NCBI GenBank assembly: GCA_028288965.1
Contig: JAQGHD010000019.1
Location: 25,202 to 89,201 of the forward strand
Direction of reading: 5' to 3'
Source of the DNA: Candidatus Saccharimonadota bacterium
Lineage (GTDB): Bacteria > Patescibacteriota > Saccharimonadia > Saccharimonadales > JAQGHD01
Length of the DNA stretch: 64,000 nt
Shown piece by piece: positions 38,695 through 47,644 of the stretch; position 1 is the stretch's first letter, and each line of letters starts with the position of its first letter. Position numbers and translations under genes: made by a program. The notes under the pieces are model-generated. The model saw nothing but the letters and a program-made list of their open reading frames with translations, did not search any database and was not told where the DNA came from.

Positions 38695-39510
38695 ATGAAA
38701 ATACTCAATGGCCGCGAATTAGCGGACTATATCAAAGAGCGCCAAGCTCGCCAAGTTCGCAGTTTGCGCCAAGCAAACCAGGTTGTGCCTCGCCTGGCAA
38801 TTATTCAAACCAAGGACGACCCGGTTATTAATACCTATGTGCGACTAAAAAAGCGCTATGGCGCCGACCTTTTAATTGATGTAGATGTGCATTTTGTGCC
38901 GCAACCGGAAGTACCAGCCCTGCTAAATAAGCTCAATTCTGACGTAGCCGTGCACGGCATTATTGTTCAACTGCCGCTAACCGACCCAACTCAGACCGAA
39001 AAAATTGTTAACTTAGTGGCGCCAGACAAAGATGTGGATGCCCTAGGGACTAAGGCACAATTCGATCCGGCTACACCCATGGCCATTATGTGGCTGTTAA
39101 GCGGCTACAATATTGACCTCACGGGTAAAAAAGTGCTGCTCATTGGCCGTGGCAAATTAGTCGGCGCGCCACTAGAGCGGATGCTCAAAGATTCTGGCAT
39201 TGATGTGCAAGTGGTGGAACGCGGTGTCGATAACCTGGCCAAACTTACCCTGGCCGCCGACGTTATTATCACTGCCACGGGCAGTCCGAGCATTTTGTAT
39301 GCAGACATGCTTAAAACCGGCGCTGTGGTGGTGGATGCTGGCGTAGCTAGCGAGGAAGGCAAAACCGTGGGCGATCTGGCTCCAAATGTCTACGAGCGCC
39401 AAGACTTGATAGTTACACCTCAAAAAGGTGGCGTTGGGCCGCTTACGGTCTGCGCTTTATTTGATAACGTGATTCGAGCTGCACGGCGAACGGTAACTAA
39501 AGATTCATAA
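38695..39510 (+). CDS. folD: Bifunctional methylenetetrahydrofolate dehydrogenase / methenyltetrahydrofolate cyclohydrolase
   Basis: 271 aa; family-typical segments (GRGKLVGAPL, ATGSPSIL, VGPLTVCALFDNV). Confidence 0.85.
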   Translation: MKILNGRELADYIKERQARQVRSLRQANQVVPRLAIIQTKDDPVINTYVRLKKRYGADLLIDVDVHFVPQPEVPALLNKLNSDVAVHGIIVQLPLTDPTQTEKIVNLVAPDKDVDALGTKAQFDPATPMAIMWLLSGYNIDLTGKKVLLIGRGKLVGAPLERMLKDSGIDVQVVERGVDNLAKLTLAADVIITATGSPSILYADMLKTGAVVVDAGVASEEGKTVGDLAPNVYERQDLIVTPQKGGVGPLTVCALFDNVIRAARRTVTKDS

Positions 39511-39593: not shown

Positions 39594-39914
39594 TTACGCC
39601 GCCGTTCTGGATGCCTGCGATCTCGCAGCATGCCACAAGAAATAGGCAAGCGCGGCGAAGATCACACCCAGGATGTTGCGCCAGGTGATTGACCGGAAGA
39701 ATGCCCAAAGCAGGAGCATGGCCGAAGCGAAGTAGAGCACGCAGGTAGCCAGCGCATTCTTCGTCAGTTCGTACGTCTCGTACCCAGCGATCGCGACGAC
39801 CACGGCAAAGAGCACGACGAAAAGTGTGCCGGCGTTGTGGCCAGAAACCAGTTGGTGCACGCTGATGAGGCCGGCGACCAAGGCGGCGATGTAGGTAATG
39901 AACTTGGGACTCAT
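39594..39914 (-). CDS. Small membrane protein (GC-rich segment)
   Basis: 106 aa, 3 hydrophobic helices; local GC content is clearly above that of the flanks. Confidence 0.4.
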   Translation of the reverse strand: MSPKFITYIAALVAGLISVHQLVSGHNAGTLFVVLFAVVVAIAGYETYELTKNALATCVLYFASAMLLLWAFFRSITWRNILGVIFAALAYFLWHAARSQASRTAA

Positions 39915-39939
39915 AACATGTCTCCTTGGTAGGGAACGA

Positions 39940-40248
39940 TCAGCGGCCGGAAGGCCGGACAGGTTGGCGAAGCAGACGACGCTGGTCGCGCACGCGGTTG
40001 CGGTGATCGAGATCGAGTGCCAGCCACATGATGACTGCCATGCCTAGGGCAATGGCTGCGATCGAGGCAGGCCTGAGCACGATGCTGTGAGGTTGGTGAT
40101 CGGCCAGGGCCGAAGCAATCTCGCAGAAGGCCGCGGGCAACAGCAAGCTGAGGCCGGTACGCCGCTTGTTCAGTTTGACGATGCAGACCCATGCCAGAGC
40201 AGCAAATGGGATGGCCAAAACAGCAAAGGCGGTACTGTCACTCATGAA
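39940..40248 (-). CDS. Small membrane protein (GC-rich segment; start at internal Met of the 39940..40335 ORF)
   Basis: MSDSTAFAVLAIPFAALAWVCIV...; hydrophobic. Confidence 0.35.
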   Translation of the reverse strand, partial: FMSDSTAFAVLAIPFAALAWVCIVKLNKRRTGLSLLLPAAFCEIASALADHQPHSIVLRPASIAAIALGMAVIMWLALDLDHRNRVRDQRRLLRQPVRPSGR

Positions 40249-40551
40249 TGAGCACTTCCTTTCCGGTTGGTGTAACAGGGAACTTGTGAAGGTTCTTTGG
40301 AGCAACTGCTCGACAAAGTATAGATATAATGGCATAAAATACTAAAAATATCAATGTTTGGGTGAGGCGACTATACCATGGCAGCAAGTAGACTACGGGC
40401 TTACTATGCCCACATTTTTTATAAGTTGTGCCGAAAATCACAAAGCTTATGCCAATTAGTTCACAGCTATTTTGCTTATGCTGTGGAAAGATTAAGACGG
40501 CTTATGCTTGCTATTCGGAGAAAAGAGGATAAAGATGTGGGGGAGAAAAGC

Positions 40552-40986
40552 ATGAATTCAATCAGTGCGTATGACGTCGCTAACGTCTTTGCTAAGCTGA
40601 CAGATATTGATTCTGGAGAGGTTTTAACGAACCTAAAAATCCAGAAGCTTGTTTACTACGCCCAAGGTTTTCACCTTGCAATGTTTGATAAGCCTCTTTT
40701 TAACGACCCTATTGTTGCGTGGGAGCATGGCCCTGTTGTTGAAGATTTGTACCACAAGCTAAAGGAGCATAAGTCATCACCAGTAATGATAGCTGGCGCA
40801 ATCAACAAAGACATCTCCACTGAACAAATTGAACTCCTTGTAGAGGTCTACGATGTTTACGGTCAGTTTTCAGCATGGAAACTCAGAGACATGACCCATA
40901 ACGAAACTCCTTGGGCAACAACACCAAAAGGTTACGTGATTACTCACGCTAAACTCAAAACATACTTCAAGAATCAGCTCCAGTAA
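40552..40986 (+). CDS. Panacea-domain (DUF4065) protein, antitoxin-like
   Basis: KIQKLVYYAQGFHLAMFDKPLFNDPIVAWEHGPVVEDLY is the hallmark block of the Panacea/SocA-like domain; strong SD GGGGGAG upstream. The ORF-track start at 40378 is probably too far upstream. Confidence 0.6.
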   Translation: MNSISAYDVANVFAKLTDIDSGEVLTNLKIQKLVYYAQGFHLAMFDKPLFNDPIVAWEHGPVVEDLYHKLKEHKSSPVMIAGAINKDISTEQIELLVEVYDVYGQFSAWKLRDMTHNETPWATTPKGYVITHAKLKTYFKNQLQ

Positions 40987-41420
40987 TGGATAGACGGCAT
41001 CCGCCTAAGCCGAAGAAAATGAAGGGCGTTTCGTTCAATCAGTCTCAAGTTAGAGTAGCTGAGTCCGCTAGTGCGCATAAGTCTGACCACCCAATATTTT
41101 GTTTGAGATATTTAGTAAATGGATACGACCTAGAGAAATGTGATAAAGAGCAAGCACACTTCTTCGTGAAGAAACTAGCAAATATGGCTCAATTATCATG
41201 GACAGCATTATTGCTTGGTGACCATAAAAGTGGGCTTGGTTTTGAGCCATTACCCAAGGACCAAATAAAAGCCCCATTGCCTGCAATTGTGACCAAGGAT
41301 ATAACTAGTATGCAAGTTATAAGATTTAAGCGTGACTACAGAATTATAGGTTTCAGGAGTGACGATACCTATAGAATTACACATATAGAGTTAGACAGGA
41401 GTGCTTATGACCACGGTTGA
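40986..41420 (+). CDS. Hypothetical protein, candidate toxin partner (C-terminus faintly RelE/ParE-like)
   Basis: Start overlaps the upstream stop (TAATGG), so co-transcribed with the Panacea gene; C-terminal RIIGFRSDDTYRITHIELDRSAY loosely resembles the RelE/ParE RxIY..d....i.i..HRxdxY end. Confidence 0.3.
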   Translation: MDRRHPPKPKKMKGVSFNQSQVRVAESASAHKSDHPIFCLRYLVNGYDLEKCDKEQAHFFVKKLANMAQLSWTALLLGDHKSGLGFEPLPKDQIKAPLPAIVTKDITSMQVIRFKRDYRIIGFRSDDTYRITHIELDRSAYDHG

Positions 41421-41462: not shown

Positions 41463-41711
41463 CTAATCAAACGTGCTTCCCAGCCCGTCCCAAAAGAACA
41501 AGGTAAATCGGTACAGTCCTGAAGTTATAATAAAAACAAAACTGGTTAAGGTAAGACTCTGTAGGTACTTCGGGCTAACGGCGTGATGAGTGCCATCTAT
41601 TGACCGCTTTAGTTGGCTCCAAAAGCCCTCGATGGTGTTGGTGTGGACGTTGCCACGTATATATTCAAGCGTTGAATGATTAACCGTTGTGTGGTTGCAG
41701 CCCGCTTGCAT
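41463..41711 (-). pseudogene. IS1595-family transposase remnant (C-terminal fragment only)
   Basis: NTIEGFWSQLKRSIDGTHHAVSPKYLQ is the conserved C-terminal block of IS1595-family DDE transposases; no N-terminal catalytic region is present upstream. Confidence 0.55.
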
Positions 41712-41725
41712 TCAGAAAAATGATT

Positions 41726-41800
41726 CGCTTTCGCTCTTTTGAGCTCATCAGTATGAATACACATTCATAAAACGAAAACGACAAATAGACAGAGATAAAG
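41726..41800. repeat. ~75-bp direct repeat, copy 1 (CGCTTTCGCTCTTTTGAGCTCATCAGTATGAATACACATTCATAAA...)
   Basis: Near-identical to 42794..42868. The two copies flank a ~1-kb GC-rich segment. Confidence 0.8.
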
Positions 41801-41900
41801 ATACACAAAGCAGCCAGGGAGGTGGCAAGGCTTTGATATATCAATATCACTGCCTATTTGCCATTCTCGCTTTACCGAGAACTTTTCTCGACCGTCAGTG

Positions 41901-42566
41901 TCAGTTGGCGTCCTGCACAATAAACCCAAACGTCAGGTCATCTTGGTCGCGGAGGTAAGGGAACAGACCCACGTAGGAGGTGCTCAAGCGCCCGGCCGCG
42001 ATCTTGCTGATGACGCTTTCCAGGTGCTGTTTTGCCCGATCTACGTCTGTAACGCGCGTGTCGATGTCCAAGGCTGCTGCCCGGAGTTCGAGCACGTAGC
42101 CCTTGACACCGTCTAGGTCTGTCAATTCGATGGCTACTTGCCTGGTTGCGTCAGCGAAAGCCTGCTGGTCCATGATCTGTTTGGTGATGTGGCTCATTGG
42201 CGTGAACCTTGCAAGGTTGCTGTTGAAGGTGATGATCACCCGGCGGAATGGCCATTCTGTCTGCGGTGTTGCGAGAACACGCTTGTCTCCACGCAAGGGG
42301 AACAAGTCCAACAGATTCTGGGTCGCCCAATCGATGGTAACCTGAACCCACTCTGCAACGGCAGCTGAATTCGTGACGTTGTCACGATACTCAACCGACA
42401 TGTCAAAACGGTTGATGTTGCAGCCAAAGACGCCGTCATGTTGCATAATGCGACCCCTAAGGGGCAGCACTGCATCGCGGTGATCCTCTGAGTTAAAGGT
42501 GCCTGTCTCTTCGTTGATTCCGGTTATAGCCGTATTGAATTCGAACGTGAGAGTCTGATTGGTCAT
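41901..42566 (-). CDS. Hypothetical protein (221 aa, soluble), GC-rich foreign-looking gene
   Basis: SD AGGAG 7 nt before ATG; high GC and GC3 versus the flanks; no recognisable motif. Confidence 0.45.
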   Translation of the reverse strand: MTNQTLTFEFNTAITGINEETGTFNSEDHRDAVLPLRGRIMQHDGVFGCNINRFDMSVEYRDNVTNSAAVAEWVQVTIDWATQNLLDLFPLRGDKRVLATPQTEWPFRRVIITFNSNLARFTPMSHITKQIMDQQAFADATRQVAIELTDLDGVKGYVLELRAAALDIDTRVTDVDRAKQHLESVISKIAAGRLSTSYVGLFPYLRDQDDLTFGFIVQDAN

Positions 42567-42633
42567 GTTGGCTCCTGCTTCAACTCACCTGACTGTTTGT
42601 CCCAACTGACGTTGGCGCGTATCCATAATGAAC

Positions 42634-42778
42634 ACACAAAGTGAGATACCAAGACGCATGGGTGTCCTAGTAACTCACTTTGTGTTTCTGTCTATTTGTC
42701 AAATAACACCTTTGGAACCCATTGGCTCAACAAAAGCAAACATTATATTACCATATAATCATAAAAAAGTCCACAATC
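42634..42778 (-). promoter_or_regulatory. Conserved leader module copy 1 (putative promoter TGGACT-17-TAATAT, conserved 45-nt block, 11-bp hairpin) upstream of 41901..42566
   Basis: Shares a ~150-nt architecture with 43430..43580: hairpin CACAAAGTGAG/CTCACTTTGTG plus conserved TTGTCAAATAACACCTTTGGAACC.ATTGGCTCAACAAAAGCAA plus AAAAGTCCACA. Confidence 0.5.
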
Positions 42779-42793
42779 TGTTTGGACGGTTAC

Positions 42794-42868
42794 CGCTTTC
42801 GCTCTTTTGAGCTCATCAGTATGAATACACATTCATAAAGCAGAAATGACGACCAGACAGGAGTTTAG
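42794..42868. repeat. ~75-bp direct repeat, copy 2
   Basis: See copy 1. Confidence 0.8.
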
Positions 42869-42946
42869 GGTAGAGGGATGACCACAAGGGTCAAACGTCT
42901 AGTTTCCTAAACTGCTCCCTGATGGTCATTTTTGCGCGCGATAACG

Positions 42947-43378
42947 CTATCCGTTATCGCACAAGCGTGGGGTCTGTTGAGACGCCGGCAGCTTGTTGAA
43001 ACTGAGGATGTTCTTGAACGACGAGAAGAGCGGCACACGCCAACCCTTGATTTGCACGCTGTACGTCGTCTCGGGCTGGATCTTGCCGTAGGCGTCGGCA
43101 GTGTTAAACCGTGTCTTGCCGAACAGCGAGTCCTTCATGACAAACGTGCCACCACTGGTGTAGATGCGGTATTCGCCGCCGTTTTGGGTAGCTACGCGCT
43201 CCTTGCTGCACACCGTCAGCACGCGAGTGCTGATGTGGTTGTAGTTGTGGAAGATGGCAGAGATGCCGACTACGAGGGCCAAAACGACCGCCGCAATGGC
43301 AACTGCACAACCCGCGCCCTGGAAATTCTCTCGACGACGAGCCCGATACTGGTTCGCATCACTAGTTCTCATGGACAT
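42947..43378 (-). CDS. Hypothetical membrane-anchored protein (143 aa; basic N-terminus, one TM, extracytoplasmic domain), GC-rich
   Basis: Very strong SD (GGAGAGGAGAAAGGAAG); TM VAIAAVVLALVVGISAI; the opposite-strand ORF 42932..43507 is low-complexity antisense. Confidence 0.45.
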   Translation of the reverse strand: MSMRTSDANQYRARRRENFQGAGCAVAIAAVVLALVVGISAIFHNYNHISTRVLTVCSKERVATQNGGEYRIYTSGGTFVMKDSLFGKTRFNTADAYGKIQPETTYSVQIKGWRVPLFSSFKNILSFNKLPASQQTPRLCDNG

Positions 43379-43429
43379 AGGGTCTTCCTTTCTCCTCTCC
43401 TCGGCATACAGCCTAAGGTGTTTATCCTA

Positions 43430-43580
43430 AACACACAAGGTGAGGAACAAAAGTACAATAATTATACGTTTGGTGCTCACCTTGTGCTTTGTCTGGTTGT
43501 CAAATAACACCTTTGGAACCGATTGGCTCAACAAAAGCAATGTAGATAATAACATAAAAATGCGCAAAAGTCCACATCTC
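43430..43580 (-). promoter_or_regulatory. Conserved leader module copy 2 upstream of 42947..43378
   Basis: Hairpin CACAAGGTGAG/CTCACCTTGTG (compensatory A-T to G-C change relative to copy 1) plus the same conserved block. Confidence 0.5.
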
Positions 43581-46318: not shown

Positions 46319-46681
46319 TTATAAATGCTGTTTAACGAGTTCGGCTACCTGCCGGGGGGTCATATCGGCCTTTAAGATCACGGCCTCTACGCCAAGTTTT
46401 TTTACATCATCTGGAATTTCTTGCTCGCCCACATTGGTCAGGATCACTACCTTAATCTTTTTGCCCCAATCGGTTTTGCGCATAGCGGCCAGCATTTGGT
46501 CACCGGTCATCTCTGGCATCATCAGATCCAGCAGAATCATGTCTGGGTTCATTTTCTCGGCCAGCTCCAAACCCAGCTTACCGTTTTCAGCGGTTTCTAC
46601 CGTAAAGCCCTCGGCCTCGAACTTAATCCGATACATTTGGCTTATGGCTTGGTCGTCTTCTACAATTGCAATTTTTGCCAT
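46319..46681 (-). CDS. Stand-alone response-regulator receiver domain protein (paralog 1)
   Basis: 120 aa; IVEDD...LLDLMMP (phospho-acceptor Asp)...ILT...K receiver signature, no output domain. Confidence 0.8.
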   Translation of the reverse strand: MAKIAIVEDDQAISQMYRIKFEAEGFTVETAENGKLGLELAEKMNPDMILLDLMMPEMTGDQMLAAMRKTDWGKKIKVVILTNVGEQEIPDDVKKLGVEAVILKADMTPRQVAELVKQHL

Positions 46682-46720
46682 ATTTCTAATCGTACGGGAA
46701 GTTGAGACTTAACTCAATCG

Positions 46721-47107
46721 TTAGTTAGCTGGTTGCGGCTTGGCGATGGTTTGCTGGACAATCTCCAATACCTGGTGGGGCGTGTAATAGGCTTTGACAA
46801 TATACTTCTCGACGTTTAGTTGGCGGACCCTTGGTGGGACCTCATCTTCGCTAATATTGGTCAGAATAATCACTTTAATGTCCTTACCCCAATCTGTTTG
46901 GCGCAGTTCCTCGAGCATCTCGTCACCGCGCATTTCGGGCATCATAACGTCGAGCATTATCAGATCGGGCTTGAATGTTTTGATCAGTTCCAGGCCTATC
47001 TTGCCATTCTCGGCTATTTTGACTTGGTAGCCCTCGGCATCCAGCTTAATGCGATACATATCGCTGATTGCTTGGTCGTCTTCTATAATTGCTATTTTTT
47101 GTGCCAT
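46721..47107 (-). CDS. Stand-alone response-regulator receiver domain protein (paralog 2)
   Basis: 128 aa; closely similar to paralog 1 (IIEDDQAISDMYRIKLDAEGY...MLDVMMPEMRGDEML...TDWGKDIKVIILTN). Confidence 0.8.
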   Translation of the reverse strand: MAQKIAIIEDDQAISDMYRIKLDAEGYQVKIAENGKIGLELIKTFKPDLIMLDVMMPEMRGDEMLEELRQTDWGKDIKVIILTNISEDEVPPRVRQLNVEKYIVKAYYTPHQVLEIVQQTIAKPQPAN

Positions 47108-47224
47108 GTTTTTTCCTATTCAAAAAGCGAGAGCAACTAGGGCCGCTACACGAAAGGCCGTAATTGTTCTCGCTTTGGTCTGATAAAAGAACTACATCTG
47201 ATTCTAGCGCTTATGGTTGGCTTG

Positions 47225-47644
47225 TCAAGCGGAGGCCACGGCATCAGCGTTACTGGAAGCATTGGTGCCCAGAATTTCTTTGATGATTTCTAGCACCTGC
47301 CCTGGCGTATGGTGAGCTTTGACTATGTAGCGGTCTACGCTCAAAAACCGTAGGATATGAGGCGCCTCGTCTTTGCTGATATTGGTCAGCACAATCACCC
47401 GAATATTACTTCCCCAATTGGTGGCGCGTAGGCGCTGGAGCATTTCATCCCCGCTCATTACCGGCATCCGCAAATCAAGCAAGATAAGATCGGGAACGAA
47501 CTCCTTGCACAGCTGCAAGCCCTCTTTCCCGTCATGAGCTGTCTTAACCTCATAGCCAGAACTCTTGAGCTTAAACTCATACATACTACAGATGGGGATA
47601 TCGTCTTCTATGACGGCAATTTTGGTTAGTTGTGTGTCAAACAT
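47225..47644 (-). CDS. Stand-alone response-regulator receiver domain protein (paralog 3)
   Basis: 139 aa; VIEDD...LLDLRMPVMSGDEML...VLTN. Confidence 0.75.
   Translation of the reverse strand: MFDTQLTKIAVIEDDIPICSMYEFKLKSSGYEVKTAHDGKEGLQLCKEFVPDLILLDLRMPVMSGDEMLQRLRATNWGSNIRVIVLTNISKDEAPHILRFLSVDRYIVKAHHTPGQVLEIIKEILGTNASSNADAVASA

What the first reader, a model, noticed from the sequence alone, without database searches (positions are those of the whole stretch)
42634..43580. Duplicated ~150-nt leader module with a covarying 11-bp hairpin in front of two unrelated GC-rich genes
Both minus-strand genes (41901..42566 and 42947..43378) are preceded by the same three-part module. Part one is a putative promoter TGGACT-17-TA(A/T)TAT. 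Part two is a 45-nt conserved block TTGCTTTTGTTGAGCCAAT(G/C)GGTTCCAAAGGTGTTATTTGACAA. Part three is an 11-bp stem whose sixth pair changes from A-U (copy 1, CACAAAGTGAG/CTCACTTTGTG) to G-C (copy 2, CACAAGGTGAG/CTCACCTTGTG). The loops differ in sequence (28 against 31 nt). A compensatory double substitution is direct evidence that the RNA or DNA structure is under selection. This points to a cis-regulatory RNA, a protein-binding hairpin or a recombination site shared by the two genes.
Basis: seen in the sequence. Interest (0 to 1): 0.65.

Follow-up and report, generated by a model that had tools for sequence, protein, structure and literature searches.

The report
Ribozyme-ended gene frame in Saccharibacteria
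The duplicated leader is the front half of a conserved RNA frame (promoter, two hairpins, a segment complementary to the far end of the message, and a self-cleaving hammerhead ribozyme after the gene) that wraps many unrelated genes in Saccharibacteria, which gives bacterial hammerheads a defined, testable setting.

Summary
I found about 27 such frames in over 20 Saccharibacteria genomes and metagenomes, around unrelated, mostly orphan genes. H1, a local 3' hairpin and the ribozyme carry sense-strand RNA signatures. The two long-range helices are strand-symmetric, so a DNA-level role for them cannot be excluded. Part of the 5'UTR overlaps Rfam's RAGATH-10, a motif of unknown function. The best reading is a portable mRNA frame in which the ribozyme sets the 3' end and hairpins cap both ends. 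Whether the message ends pair in RNA is unproven. Recent duplication of promoter DNA is refuted. I rate it a new variant of a known kind.

The parts
43546..43574 (-). Cassette A promoter-like site: TGGACT, 17-nt spacer, TATTAT, with a TG extension
   Evidence: 9/12. Relatives have TTGACT/TTGACA-17-TATAAT-like sites ending a median of 45 nt before C5.
43502..43540 (-).
   Evidence: -11.3 kcal/mol, z -2.06. A two-tier leader hairpin with a covarying outer stem is family-wide (mean z -2.0, 16 of 24 below -1.5).
43489..43501 (-). Cassette A C5, GACAACCAGACAA, complementary to C3 (42848-42860)
   Evidence: 11/13 pairs. The co-fold minimum-energy structure contains this helix.
43434..43486 (-). Cassette A hairpin H1 (basal 11 bp CACAAGGUGAG/CUCACCUUGUG plus a paired distal part)
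   Evidence: I1; -25.6 kcal/mol, z -6.2; covariation.
43426..43432 (-). Cassette A 5' half of the second long-range helix (GUUUAGG)
   Evidence: It pairs with CCUAAAC at 42863-42869.
42947..43378 (-). Gene A, 143 aa, with an N-terminal transmembrane segment and a weak DUF1523 match
   Evidence: Its homologs include one in an ordinary operon without a frame (L063).
42863..42869 (-). Cassette A 3' half of the second long-range helix (CCUAAAC)
42848..42860 (-). Cassette A C3, CUGUCUGGUCGUC
   Evidence: It ends 10 nt before the cleavage site.
42793..42847 (-). Hammerhead 1 (type III). Predicted cleavage is after 42838 (CUU|U). Stem I UAUGAAU/AUUCAUA, core CUGAUGA, stem II GCUC/GAGC, GAAA, stem III CUGC/GCGG.
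   Evidence: RF00008, 29.8 bits, below the cut-off of 48.5; own model R1, 72.1 bits, E 1e-16; covariation; the canonical fold is the minimum-energy structure.
42745..42773 (-). Cassette B promoter-like site: TGGACT, 17-nt spacer, TAATAT (8/12). It begins 19 nt after hammerhead 1.
   Evidence: It is homologous in position to the site in cassette A and falls below the threshold of the scan.
42701..42739 (-). Cassette B leader hairpin (conserved block)
   Evidence: -11.2 kcal/mol, z -1.41.
42687..42700 (-). Cassette B C5, GACAAAUAGACAGA, perfectly complementary to 41780-41793
   Evidence: (I3, 14/14).
42635..42684 (-). Cassette B hairpin H1 (basal stem CACAAAGUGAG/CUCACUUUGUG)
   Evidence: I2; -31.0 kcal/mol, z -7.0.
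42616..42624 (-). Cassette B 5' half of the second long-range helix (GGAUACGCG)
   Evidence: 9 bp with UGUGUAUCU at 41799-41807.
41901..42566 (-). Gene B, 221 aa, no Pfam domain, predicted as two tandem ferredoxin/ACT-like repeats
   Evidence: (88 family representatives).
41850..41862 (-). Cassette B decoy, GGCAAAUAGGCAG: a local partner for C3 that would form a 3'-terminal hairpin
   Evidence: 13/13 with G.U. Family-wide enrichment is (12 of 20, p 1e-10). G.U specificity is (p 0.0005).
41799..41807 (-). Cassette B 3' half of the second long-range helix (UGUGUAUCU)
41780..41793 (-). Cassette B C3, UCUGUCUAUUUGUC
   Evidence: (I3).
41724..41779 (-). Hammerhead 2 (type III). Predicted cleavage is after 41770 (UUU|U). 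The core and stems I and II are identical to hammerhead 1. Stem III is UUCGU/GCGAA.
   Evidence: 23.7 bits; R1, 73.1 bits. One search shows that the minimum-energy structure is a competing fold.

Best explanation
The duplicated leader is the 5' half of a self-contained mRNA frame specific to Saccharibacteria. Each frame has its own sigma-70-type promoter. The transcript starts with a small leader hairpin (the '45-nt block'). Next come a conserved 13-nt segment, C5, and a long stable hairpin, H1. These are followed by a short 5'UTR with the ribosome-binding site, one cargo gene, and a 3'UTR. The 3'UTR ends in C3, the complement of C5. A type III hammerhead ribozyme cuts the RNA 10 nt after C3. 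Shown by comparative evidence: the frame is conserved around unrelated genes; H1, the leader hairpin, a local 3' hairpin and all three hammerhead stems covary; and C5 is complementary to C3, and the 5'UTR just after H1 is complementary to the 3'UTR just before C3, each in a cassette-specific way. Inferred: (1) self-cleavage detaches the message from whatever lies downstream (here the next cassette, 19 nt away) and leaves a 3' end with a 2',3'-cyclic phosphate just past a helix; (2) the 5' leader hairpin and the 3' helix protect the ends from exonucleases; (3) C3 pairs either with a local G.U-rich decoy, giving a 3' hairpin, or with the distant, perfectly Watson-Crick C5 plus the second helix, giving a panhandle with H1 as a side branch and the coding region as the loop; (4) in a subfamily, the 3' arm of H1 (CCUCAUC) can instead pair with GAUGAGG at the Shine-Dalgarno sequence. 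That pairing is the P1 helix of Rfam RAGATH-10 and would allow translational control. It is weak in the two window copies. The confidence given is for the RNA-level processing and stability reading as a whole. That the frame and the hammerheads exist is close to certain.
For: Layout in the window. The same layout appears around gene B homologs in other genomes and around unrelated genes in 21 Saccharibacteria MAGs and 8 metagenome contigs. H1 and C5/C3: 97.9% of cells paired, 5 pairs with changes on both sides, covariation score above all 500 shuffles. L034 has a different C5/C3 sequence that is still complementary, and L065 shows a C-G to G-C swap. Hammerhead: 96.6% paired, 13 of 15 pairs with changes on both sides, score 0.608 against 0.246; the core is intact; the window has exactly two hits to model R1, at 72-73 bits. 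RNA-level and sense-strand signatures: H1 is more stable on the sense strand in 22 of 29 cassettes, G.U 69 against 30, p 0.017; a decoy is present in 12 of 20 cassettes against 6% expected and is G.U-specific, p 0.0005. Second long-range helix: matched pairs average -22.9 against -19.6 kcal/mol for mismatched pairs, and 8.8 against 6.7 bp, permutation p below 1e-4. Promoters: median 9.5/12 at a fixed distance from C5. The leader hairpin is general. The co-fold of cassette A reproduces the leader hairpin, C5/C3, H1 and the second helix. RAGATH-10 hits L046 above the gathering score, with sub-threshold hits in L051, L042, L059 and window A. The cargo ORF always has the same orientation. Hammerheads flanking single genes are known from prophages, where they are thought to cut long transcripts into gene-length mRNAs (PMC3088659).
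Against: No expression, 5'/3'-end or cleavage data exist for these RNAs. C5/C3 and the second helix show no G.U preference (5 G.U against 6 A.C; 8.8 against 8.2 bp, p 0.82), so they could be DNA-level repeats. Co-fold interaction energies are no better than shuffled controls, and in cassette B the minimum-energy structure uses the local decoy instead of C5. Hammerhead 2's minimum-energy structure is a competing fold. Both ribozymes score below Rfam's gathering threshold. The cleavage triplets are CUU and UUU, not the common GUC. The ribozyme is degenerate or lost in several lineages while C5/C3 stays 13/13, so the pairing does not depend on the ribozyme. The test of whether a terminator substitutes for the ribozyme was inconclusive. 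The alternative Shine-Dalgarno pairing is exact in only 8 of 28 cassettes and absent in the CUCACC type that includes window A. C3 and the H1 3' arm were located by complementarity, so the percentage paired is partly circular.
Confidence: 0.55

Rival explanations
1. The nested inverted repeats (C5/C3, the second helix, H1) act in DNA rather than RNA. On this view the promoter-leader-hairpin-ribozyme unit is a 'landing pad', and cargo bounded by its own short inverted repeats is inserted into or deleted from the hairpin. The mechanism would be a recombinase or replication slippage across the palindrome. It can coexist with RNA-level roles for H1 and the ribozyme.
For: The long-range complementarity is strand-symmetric. 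L048 has an empty frame in which C5, H1 and C3 form one hairpin, and the syntenic L060 has a 140-nt ORF-less insert bounded by GTTTAGGAAT/ATTCCTAAAC. The cargo is diverse and mostly orphan, and a gene A homolog exists without a frame. Cassettes often lie just after tRNA genes. In one lineage the whole unit is bounded by a direct repeat that resembles a tRNA 3' end. The window's pair lies in a variable stretch next to an IS1595 fragment and a toxin-antitoxin gene.
Against: No integrase or transposase is consistently adjacent; in the window the only one is a truncated IS1595 fragment. C5/C3 does not match the integron attC core, and each cassette has its own promoter. No cassette is inverted (0 of about 27). 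All six gene B relatives at 28-45% identity keep the frame, which indicates long-term vertical association rather than frequent shuffling. H1 and the decoy hairpin carry sense-strand G.U signatures. The flanking direct repeat is absent from the window.
Confidence: 0.2
2. H1 and the C5/C3 duplex are processing or binding sites for a trans-acting factor, for example RNase III acting on about 25-38 bp of stacked duplex, or a regulator that recognises the repeated ACAAG/CUUGU helix bases. On this view all framed genes form one post-transcriptional regulon.
For: The basal 11 bp of H1 and the 13 nt of C5 are conserved in sequence and not only in pairing. Both helices start with ACAAG/CUUGU. Position 12 of H1 is non-Watson-Crick in 17 of 24 cassettes. 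H1 has a constant span of 49-57 nt. The distal stem varies in sequence but stays paired.
Against: No candidate protein was identified, and no test is possible with these tools. Sequence conservation could also reflect the alternative pairings (C3 with the decoy, the H1 3' arm with the Shine-Dalgarno region).
Confidence: 0.15
3. Where cassettes are in tandem, as in this window, read-through RNA is cut by two hammerheads. The resulting 5'-OH and 2',3'-cyclic-phosphate ends, held together by the C5/C3 panhandle, are then ligated into a circular mRNA.
For: The window has a tandem arrangement with 19 nt between hammerhead 1 and promoter B. The stem III strands of the two ribozymes are mutually compatible (read from the sequence). 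Circular products were considered for clustered bacterial hammerheads (PMC3088659).
Against: Most frames are single and have their own promoter, so the 5' end would be a triphosphate. Perreault et al. did not detect circles. The 5' end produced by hammerhead 1 lies about 140 nt from C5.
Confidence: 0.04
4. The similarity is only a recent segmental duplication of promoter DNA without function.
For: Only two copies exist in this 64-kb window.
Against: About 27 frames occur in over 20 genomes. There are compensatory changes in five helices. The block is 98% identical between the two copies while the adjacent promoter spacer has diverged. Gene B relatives at 28-45% identity retain the frame.
Confidence: 0.01

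Closest known systems
Type III hammerhead ribozymes of bacteria and phages (Rfam RF00008; Perreault et al. 2011, PMC3088659)
   Same: The catalytic core CUGAUGA...GAAA is identical, stems I and II are closed, stem III is open, and the cleavage site follows the NUH rule. Stem II (GCUC-AAAA-GAGC) is identical to that of 28 phage intergenic hammerheads. As in prophages, the ribozymes flank single genes of varying identity, and a hairpin sits just upstream of the cleavage site.
   Different: Here the ribozyme is one fixed component of a frame whose other half is a structured 5'UTR with its own promoter. The segment just before the cleavage site is complementary to the 5'UTR. The host is a chromosome of an ultrasmall epibiotic bacterium, and no phage genes were seen nearby. 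Scores are below Rfam's gathering threshold (24-40 against 48.5 bits).
RAGATH-10 RNA (Rfam RF03147; from the Weinberg et al. 2017 screen, PMC5737381; function unknown)
   Same: One frame, L046, scores above the gathering threshold, and four others including window A give sub-threshold hits at the same place, from the 3' arm of H1 to the Shine-Dalgarno sequence. By its name the motif is associated with hammerhead/twister neighbourhoods.
   Different: The Rfam model covers only about 70 nt downstream of H1. It pairs the H1 3' arm with the Shine-Dalgarno region instead of with the H1 5' arm. It contains no leader hairpin, C5, H1 5' arm, C3 or ribozyme. The window's two copies do not reach the threshold (18.8 bits and no hit).
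Ribozyme-based insulators used in synthetic biology (for example RiboJ) and hairpin-protected 3' ends left by RNase III or terminators
   Same: The logic is shared: self-cleavage makes transcript ends independent of genetic context, and a hairpin next to the new end stabilises the message. This comparison rests on my own knowledge and was not tested here.
   Different: Those devices act at the 5' end and are engineered. Here the ribozyme is natural, lies at the 3' end, and is coupled to 5'-3' complementarity.
Integron gene cassettes with attC sites
   Same: Single, mostly orphan genes in one orientation are associated with imperfect inverted repeats that can fold. Empty and filled forms both occur.
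   Different: No IntI was found. The repeats do not match RYYYAAC/GTTRRRY. Every cassette has its own promoter. The repeats bracket the whole gene instead of forming a compact site after it. A ribozyme is present.

Membership tests
Hammerhead ribozyme, type III | Conserved core C3-U4-G5-A6-N7-G8-A9 and G12-A13-A14 | tested here: met
   Both window copies read CUGAUGA ... GAAA. The core is invariant in the 14 aligned 3' modules except at the variable position N7.
Hammerhead ribozyme, type III | Three helices around the core, with stems I and II closed by loops and stem III open | tested here: met
   In one search, the three helices are 96.5%, 97.2% and 95.8% paired across 18 sequences, and 13 of 15 pairs have changes on both sides. 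Slid controls give 29-45% paired.
Hammerhead ribozyme, type III | A15.1-U16.1 pair, an NUH cleavage triplet, and paired N1.1-N2.1 and N10.1-N11.1 (rules of Perreault et al. 2011) | tested here: met
   In the window the triplets are CUU and UUU (H17 = U), with A15.1-U16.1, U1.1-A2.1 and G10.1-C11.1 all paired. Some relatives (L062, L064, L065) have U.U at 10.1-11.1 and would fail this rule.
Hammerhead ribozyme, type III | Score at or above Rfam RF00008's gathering threshold (48.5 bits) | tested here: not met
   The window copies score 29.8 and 23.7 bits, and relatives score 29-40 bits. A family-specific model gives 72-73 bits.
Hammerhead ribozyme, type III | Self-cleavage activity | not testable with these tools
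   This requires in vitro transcription of 42788-42860 and 41720-41792.
RAGATH-10 (RF03147) | Score at or above the gathering threshold (41.2 bits) | tested here: not met
   Window A scores 18.8 bits and window B gives no hit. Relative L046 scores 43.8 bits, which meets the threshold, and L051, L059 and L042 score 26-30 bits.
RAGATH-10 (RF03147) | P1 helix between CCUCAUCU and GGAUGAGG next to the Shine-Dalgarno sequence | tested here: inconclusive
   The exact matching hexamer is present in 8 of 28 cassettes, 36-49 nt after H1 (p 0.02), and in none of the CUCACC type that includes window A. Window B has only a wobble-compatible GGUGAG.
Integron gene cassette / attC | R''/R' core sites RYYYAAC and GTTRRRY | tested here: not met
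   C5/C3 is GACAAGCAGACAG/CUGUCUGCUUGUC. The second helix varies between cassettes.
Integron gene cassette / attC | Promoterless cassettes expressed from a common promoter next to an IntI integrase gene | tested here: not met
   Each frame has its own promoter-like site. The window's neighbours are a Panacea-domain gene, an unknown ORF and an IS1595 fragment.
Invertible DNA switch (inverton) | A segment between inverted repeats found in both orientations | tested here: not met
   In all of about 27 cassettes, H1 is next to C5 and the ORF points from the promoter to the ribozyme.
Intrinsic terminator as the 3'-end signal | A G+C-rich hairpin followed by a U-run after the gene | tested here: not met
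   None lies on the minus strand between the stop codons and the ribozymes in the window. Across the family the relation between ribozyme and terminator is inconclusive.

The most novel reading that the evidence does not exclude
Saccharibacteria possess a portable 'mRNA capsule'. It is a self-contained expression frame in which a hammerhead ribozyme makes the 3' end. The newly made 3' end can switch from a local hairpin to pairing with the 5'UTR, closing the message into a panhandle around a conserved hairpin. The closure would couple message completion to stability or translation. The conserved frame ends would also serve as homology arms or a hairpin landing pad, letting these naturally competent, genome-reduced bacteria swap accessory genes. 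This would be a natural closed-loop bacterial mRNA and a concrete physiological role for chromosomal bacterial hammerheads.
Probability: 0.25. Interest if true: 0.85.

Novelty: new variant of a known kind. Interest (0 to 1): 0.66.

Why it matters
Hundreds of bacterial hammerheads are known, but Perreault et al. state that their precise biological functions remain unclear. Here the ribozyme is a fixed part of a conserved, multi-element frame around single genes, with a partner structure in the 5'UTR and about 27 natural variants that already supply compensatory mutations. That makes the question testable: the cleavage sites are predicted to the nucleotide, and the alternative pairings can be broken and restored. 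It places RAGATH-10, a motif of unknown function in Rfam, inside this larger frame. It also identifies a lineage-specific way in which the ultrasmall, poorly understood Saccharibacteria express accessory, mostly orphan genes. Standard annotation would miss all of it, because every ribozyme scores below Rfam's threshold.

Tried and rejected
1. Exact scans for the 45-nt block found nothing in viral, genome or metagenome collections. The block is one lineage's version of a variable leader hairpin, so I switched to patterns based on C5 and H1.
2. The hammerhead core pattern in viral contigs returned 28 ordinary phage intergenic hammerheads with a different stem I and no frame. The H1 and C5 patterns found nothing in viral contigs.
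3. I noticed that the block's UUUUGUUGAGC is complementary to hammerhead stem II. This is not conserved in relatives with other stem II sequences, so I dropped it as coincidence.
4. Thermodynamic support for 5'-3' pairing failed: co-fold gains are no better than shuffled controls.
5. My first strand test was confounded because the basal stem is palindromic. I redid it with fixed orientation.
6. The idea that the ribozyme replaces a terminator gave no clean association.
7. The inverton reading is rejected because no cassette is inverted.
8. The integron reading is rejected on core sites and promoters.
9. The flanking AAGTTCTAAC motif as a general boundary is rejected because it is specific to one lineage and absent from the window.
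10. Gene B's function is unresolved: no Pfam domain, and the fold search gives only generic ferredoxin/ACT-like matches. The AFDB library was unavailable.
11. The supplement of Weinberg et al. 2017 that describes RAGATH-10 is not held.
12. No paper combining hammerhead and Saccharibacteria was found.
13. The contig DNA for gene A homolog P0011 was not retrievable.
Full report
SOURCE AND OBSERVATION. The window comes from a Candidatus Saccharibacteria MAG (locus tags JWS12_xxx; exact-sequence look-up). The repeat finder gives an 87-nt direct repeat at 80% identity. The core of the block occurs twice against 0 expected from shuffles, and so does the hairpin pattern. The stems, the spacing between their arms (28 and 31 nt) and the A-U/G-C difference at the sixth pair are as reported. 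The promoter scan lists TGGACT-17-TATTAT for copy A (9/12, with a TG extension). Copy B's site matches only 8/12 but lies at the same distance from C5, 44 nt. Two details need correcting. First, the 'loops' are paired, so the hairpin (H1) has 19-25 bp, with energies of -25.6 and -31.0 kcal/mol and z-scores of -6.2 and -7.0. Second, the genes are about 55% GC in a window of about 50-56%, so the contrast comes mainly from the AT-rich leaders.

A second repeat of 67 nt at 90% identity follows each gene. It contains CUGAUGA-GCUC-AAAA-GAGC-GAAA, preceded by the hairpin UAUGAAU-GUGU-AUUCAUA. This is a complete type III hammerhead, with predicted cleavage after 42838 and after 41770. Rfam's Hammerhead_3 model scores the two copies at 29.8 and 23.7 bits, below its cut-off of 48.5, so routine annotation would not report them. 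In addition, the 13-14 nt directly after the conserved block (C5: GACAAAUAGACAGA in B, GACAACCAGACAA in A) are complementary to the 13-14 nt that end 10 nt before each cleavage site (C3: UCUGUCUAUUUGUC in B, CUGUCUGGUCGUC in A). The match is 14/14 in B (I3) and 11/13 in A, with two compensatory differences between the cassettes.

RELATIVES. The block itself has no exact match in the viral, genome or metagenome collections. Gene B has distant homologs, and their contigs show the same layout: promoter, small hairpin, UUUGACAA-NN-AGACAG, the ACAAAGUGAG...CUCACUUUGUG hairpin, gene, CUGUCUGCUUGUC, hammerhead. Patterns built from these shared parts found 24 genome contigs, of which 21 are Saccharibacteria or Patescibacteria MAGs. 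The other three are chance hits without a partner and serve as negative controls. The patterns also found 8 metagenome contigs. Nearly every true module has a C3 lying 72-1586 nt downstream with 12-13 of 13 pairs. Most C3 sites are followed within about 10 nt by a hammerhead cleavage site. Each frame holds one ORF, always in the promoter-to-ribozyme orientation. Fifteen of 17 cargo proteins have no Pfam domain; one is an acyl-CoA dehydrogenase, and gene A has only a weak DUF1523 match. A deep search shows that gene B belongs to a family with 88 representatives. All six distinct relatives I could examine, at 28-45% identity, are framed. A gene A homolog sits in an ordinary operon with no frame.

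COMPARATIVE TESTS. In a fixed-register alignment of 22 cassettes, C5/C3 and the basal H1 stem are 97.9% paired, against 27-46% when the partner is slid. Five pairs have changes on both sides, and the covariation score exceeds all 500 shuffles. One caveat applies: I located C3 and the H1 3' arm by complementarity, so the percentage paired is partly circular. The independent support is C3's fixed position before the ribozyme and its near-perfect Watson-Crick match, which chance would not produce. L034 has a quite different C5/C3 pair, AACAAGCGGAUAGAUA with UAUCUAUCUGUCUUGUU, that is still complementary. L065 shows a C-G to G-C swap. A covariance model of C3 plus the hammerhead finds exactly two hits in the window, at 72-73 bits. 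On 18 sequences the three hammerhead helices are 96.6% paired, 13 of 15 pairs have changes on both sides, and the score is 0.608 against 0.246 for shuffles. The rules of Perreault et al. for accepting a hammerhead are met by both window copies.

FURTHER ANATOMY.
(i) The '45-nt block' folds into a two-tier hairpin (-11 kcal/mol, z -2.1 and -1.4). Relatives have the same kind of hairpin with a covarying outer stem, followed by (Y)ACUUU and C5.
(ii) The 5'UTR directly after H1 is complementary to the 3'UTR directly before C3, in a way specific to each cassette. Matched pairs average -22.9 against -19.6 kcal/mol for mismatched pairs, and 8.8 against 6.7 bp, with permutation p below 1e-4. In the window these helices are GUUUAGG/CCUAAAC in A and GGAUACGCG/UGUGUAUCU in B. 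Together with C5/C3 this would form a panhandle with H1 as a side branch.
(iii) Twelve of 20 cassettes have a C5-like 'decoy' 50-75 nt upstream of C3, against 6% expected (p 1e-10). The decoy pairs with C3 using many G.U pairs and follows the C3 variants. In cassette B it is GGCAAAUAGGCAG at 41862..41850.
(iv) In a subfamily, a copy of the H1 5' arm lies next to the Shine-Dalgarno sequence and could pair with the H1 3' arm. This is the P1 helix of Rfam RAGATH-10. That model hits L046 above its threshold and four other cassettes, including window A, below it. The exact matching hexamer is present in only 8 of 28 cassettes (p 0.02) and is weak in the window.
(v) Position 12 of H1 is non-Watson-Crick in 17 of 24 cassettes.
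(vi) Strong promoters (median 9.5/12) end a median of 45 nt before C5.

RNA OR DNA. H1 is more stable on the gene-sense strand in 22 of 29 cassettes, with 69 against 30 G.U pairs (p 0.017). The decoy:C3 hairpin is found under a G.U rule in 12 cassettes but under the mirror A.C rule in only 4 (p 0.0005). The hammerhead is an RNA device by nature. In contrast, C5/C3 (5 G.U against 6 A.C) and the second helix (8.8 against 8.2 bp, p 0.82) are strand-symmetric. Co-fold energies do not beat shuffled controls. Cassette A's minimum-energy structure contains all proposed helices, but cassette B's uses the decoy. At a syntenic site, L048 has an empty frame in which C5, H1 and C3 form one hairpin followed by a hammerhead, while L060 has a 140-nt ORF-less insert bounded by GTTTAGGAAT/ATTCCTAAAC. 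The long-range repeats may therefore act in RNA, in DNA (as scars or substrates of cargo insertion and deletion), or in both.

INTERPRETATION. The best-supported reading is a portable mRNA frame. It has its own promoter and a 5' hairpin cap. The ribozyme detaches the message from downstream sequence, which in this window is the next cassette, 19 nt away. The new 3' end lies just beyond a helix. C3 can choose between a local and a distant partner. In some lineages the H1 3' arm can sequester the Shine-Dalgarno sequence. The frame itself, the hammerhead fold and the H1 structure are shown by comparative evidence. Cleavage, end protection, the panhandle and translational control are inferred. The ribozyme is degenerate or lost in several lineages while C5/C3 stays perfect, so C5/C3 has a role that does not depend on the ribozyme. 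A test of whether terminators substitute for lost ribozymes was inconclusive.

COMPARISON WITH WHAT IS KNOWN. Bacterial and phage type III hammerheads that flank single genes are known, and their function is described as unclear (PMC3088659). RAGATH-10 is a catalogued motif with no described function in the text I could read (PMC5737381). I found no paper that links hammerheads with Saccharibacteria. What is new is the composite frame: the leader hairpin, C5, H1, the second helix, the decoy, C3 and the ribozyme together, restricted to one taxon and wrapped around unrelated genes. I rate it a new variant of a known kind, with interest 0.66.

Noticed in passing
window 40378-41420 (+): The ORF at 40378-40986 has a SocA/Panacea antitoxin domain (E 6e-23). 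It is followed by an overlapping 144-aa ORF with no Pfam match. This is a likely toxin-antitoxin pair directly beside the cassettes.
   Followed up: partly
window 41463-41711 (-): A truncated IS1595/ISXO2-like transposase (82 aa matching profile positions 93-142 of 153) abuts the end of hammerhead 2. The stretch between folD (38695-39510) and murI (starting about 43607) looks like a variable island.
   Followed up: partly
window 46319-47644 (-): Three consecutive ORFs of about 120-140 aa have very similar N-termini (IAI[IV]EDD...) and look like stand-alone response-regulator receiver domains. I judged this from the translations only.
   Followed up: no
window 39594-40335 (-): A stretch of about 60% GC, the highest in the region, carries two small hydrophobic ORFs (106 and 131 aa). 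It is compositionally more unusual than genes A and B.
   Followed up: no
L029 6601-6617, 6898-6914 and about 7897-7915; L030 74-90; L049 7330-7346: A roughly 21-nt motif, AAGTTCTAAC.TC.TCCGCT, is sometimes followed by ACGGCCCGCCA and resembles a tRNA 3' end. It recurs as a direct repeat bounding the framed cassette and neighbouring small gene blocks downstream of a tRNA-Asp gene. It looks like attachment-site remnants of serial integrations. It is absent from the window.
   Followed up: partly
L048 4952-5100 and L060 7490-7760: The two loci are syntenic (about 79% identity over several kb). One has an empty frame, in which C5, H1 and C3 form one hairpin followed by a hammerhead. The other has a 140-nt ORF-less insert inside the same frame.
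   Followed up: yes
L047, L052, L054, L062 (H1 hairpins): In these four cassettes H1 folds markedly better on the antisense strand (by up to 13 kcal/mol), the opposite of the family trend. L047 and L052 also lack the hammerhead.
   Followed up: no
L059 4872-4944 and 5488-5553: Two 3' modules lie in tandem with degenerate hammerhead cores (CUAAUGAG...GGAUGAAAG). A sub-threshold RAGATH-10 hit lies between them at 5077-5157. This appears to be a decaying tandem pair analogous to the window's.
   Followed up: partly
L062, L064, L065 (hammerheads): This sub-lineage has CUGAUGA-UUCC-AAAA-GGAU-GAAA, that is, a U.U opposition at positions 10.1-11.1 next to the core. Such a copy would be rejected by the usual hammerhead rules and may be slow or inactive.
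   Followed up: no
L029, L033, L037, L045 (tRNA-Asp); L061 (tRNA-Met); L034 (tRNA-Val): Framed cassettes frequently start within 10-400 nt downstream of a tRNA gene on the same strand. In L029 the promoter begins 3 nt after the tRNA's CCA end.
   Followed up: partly
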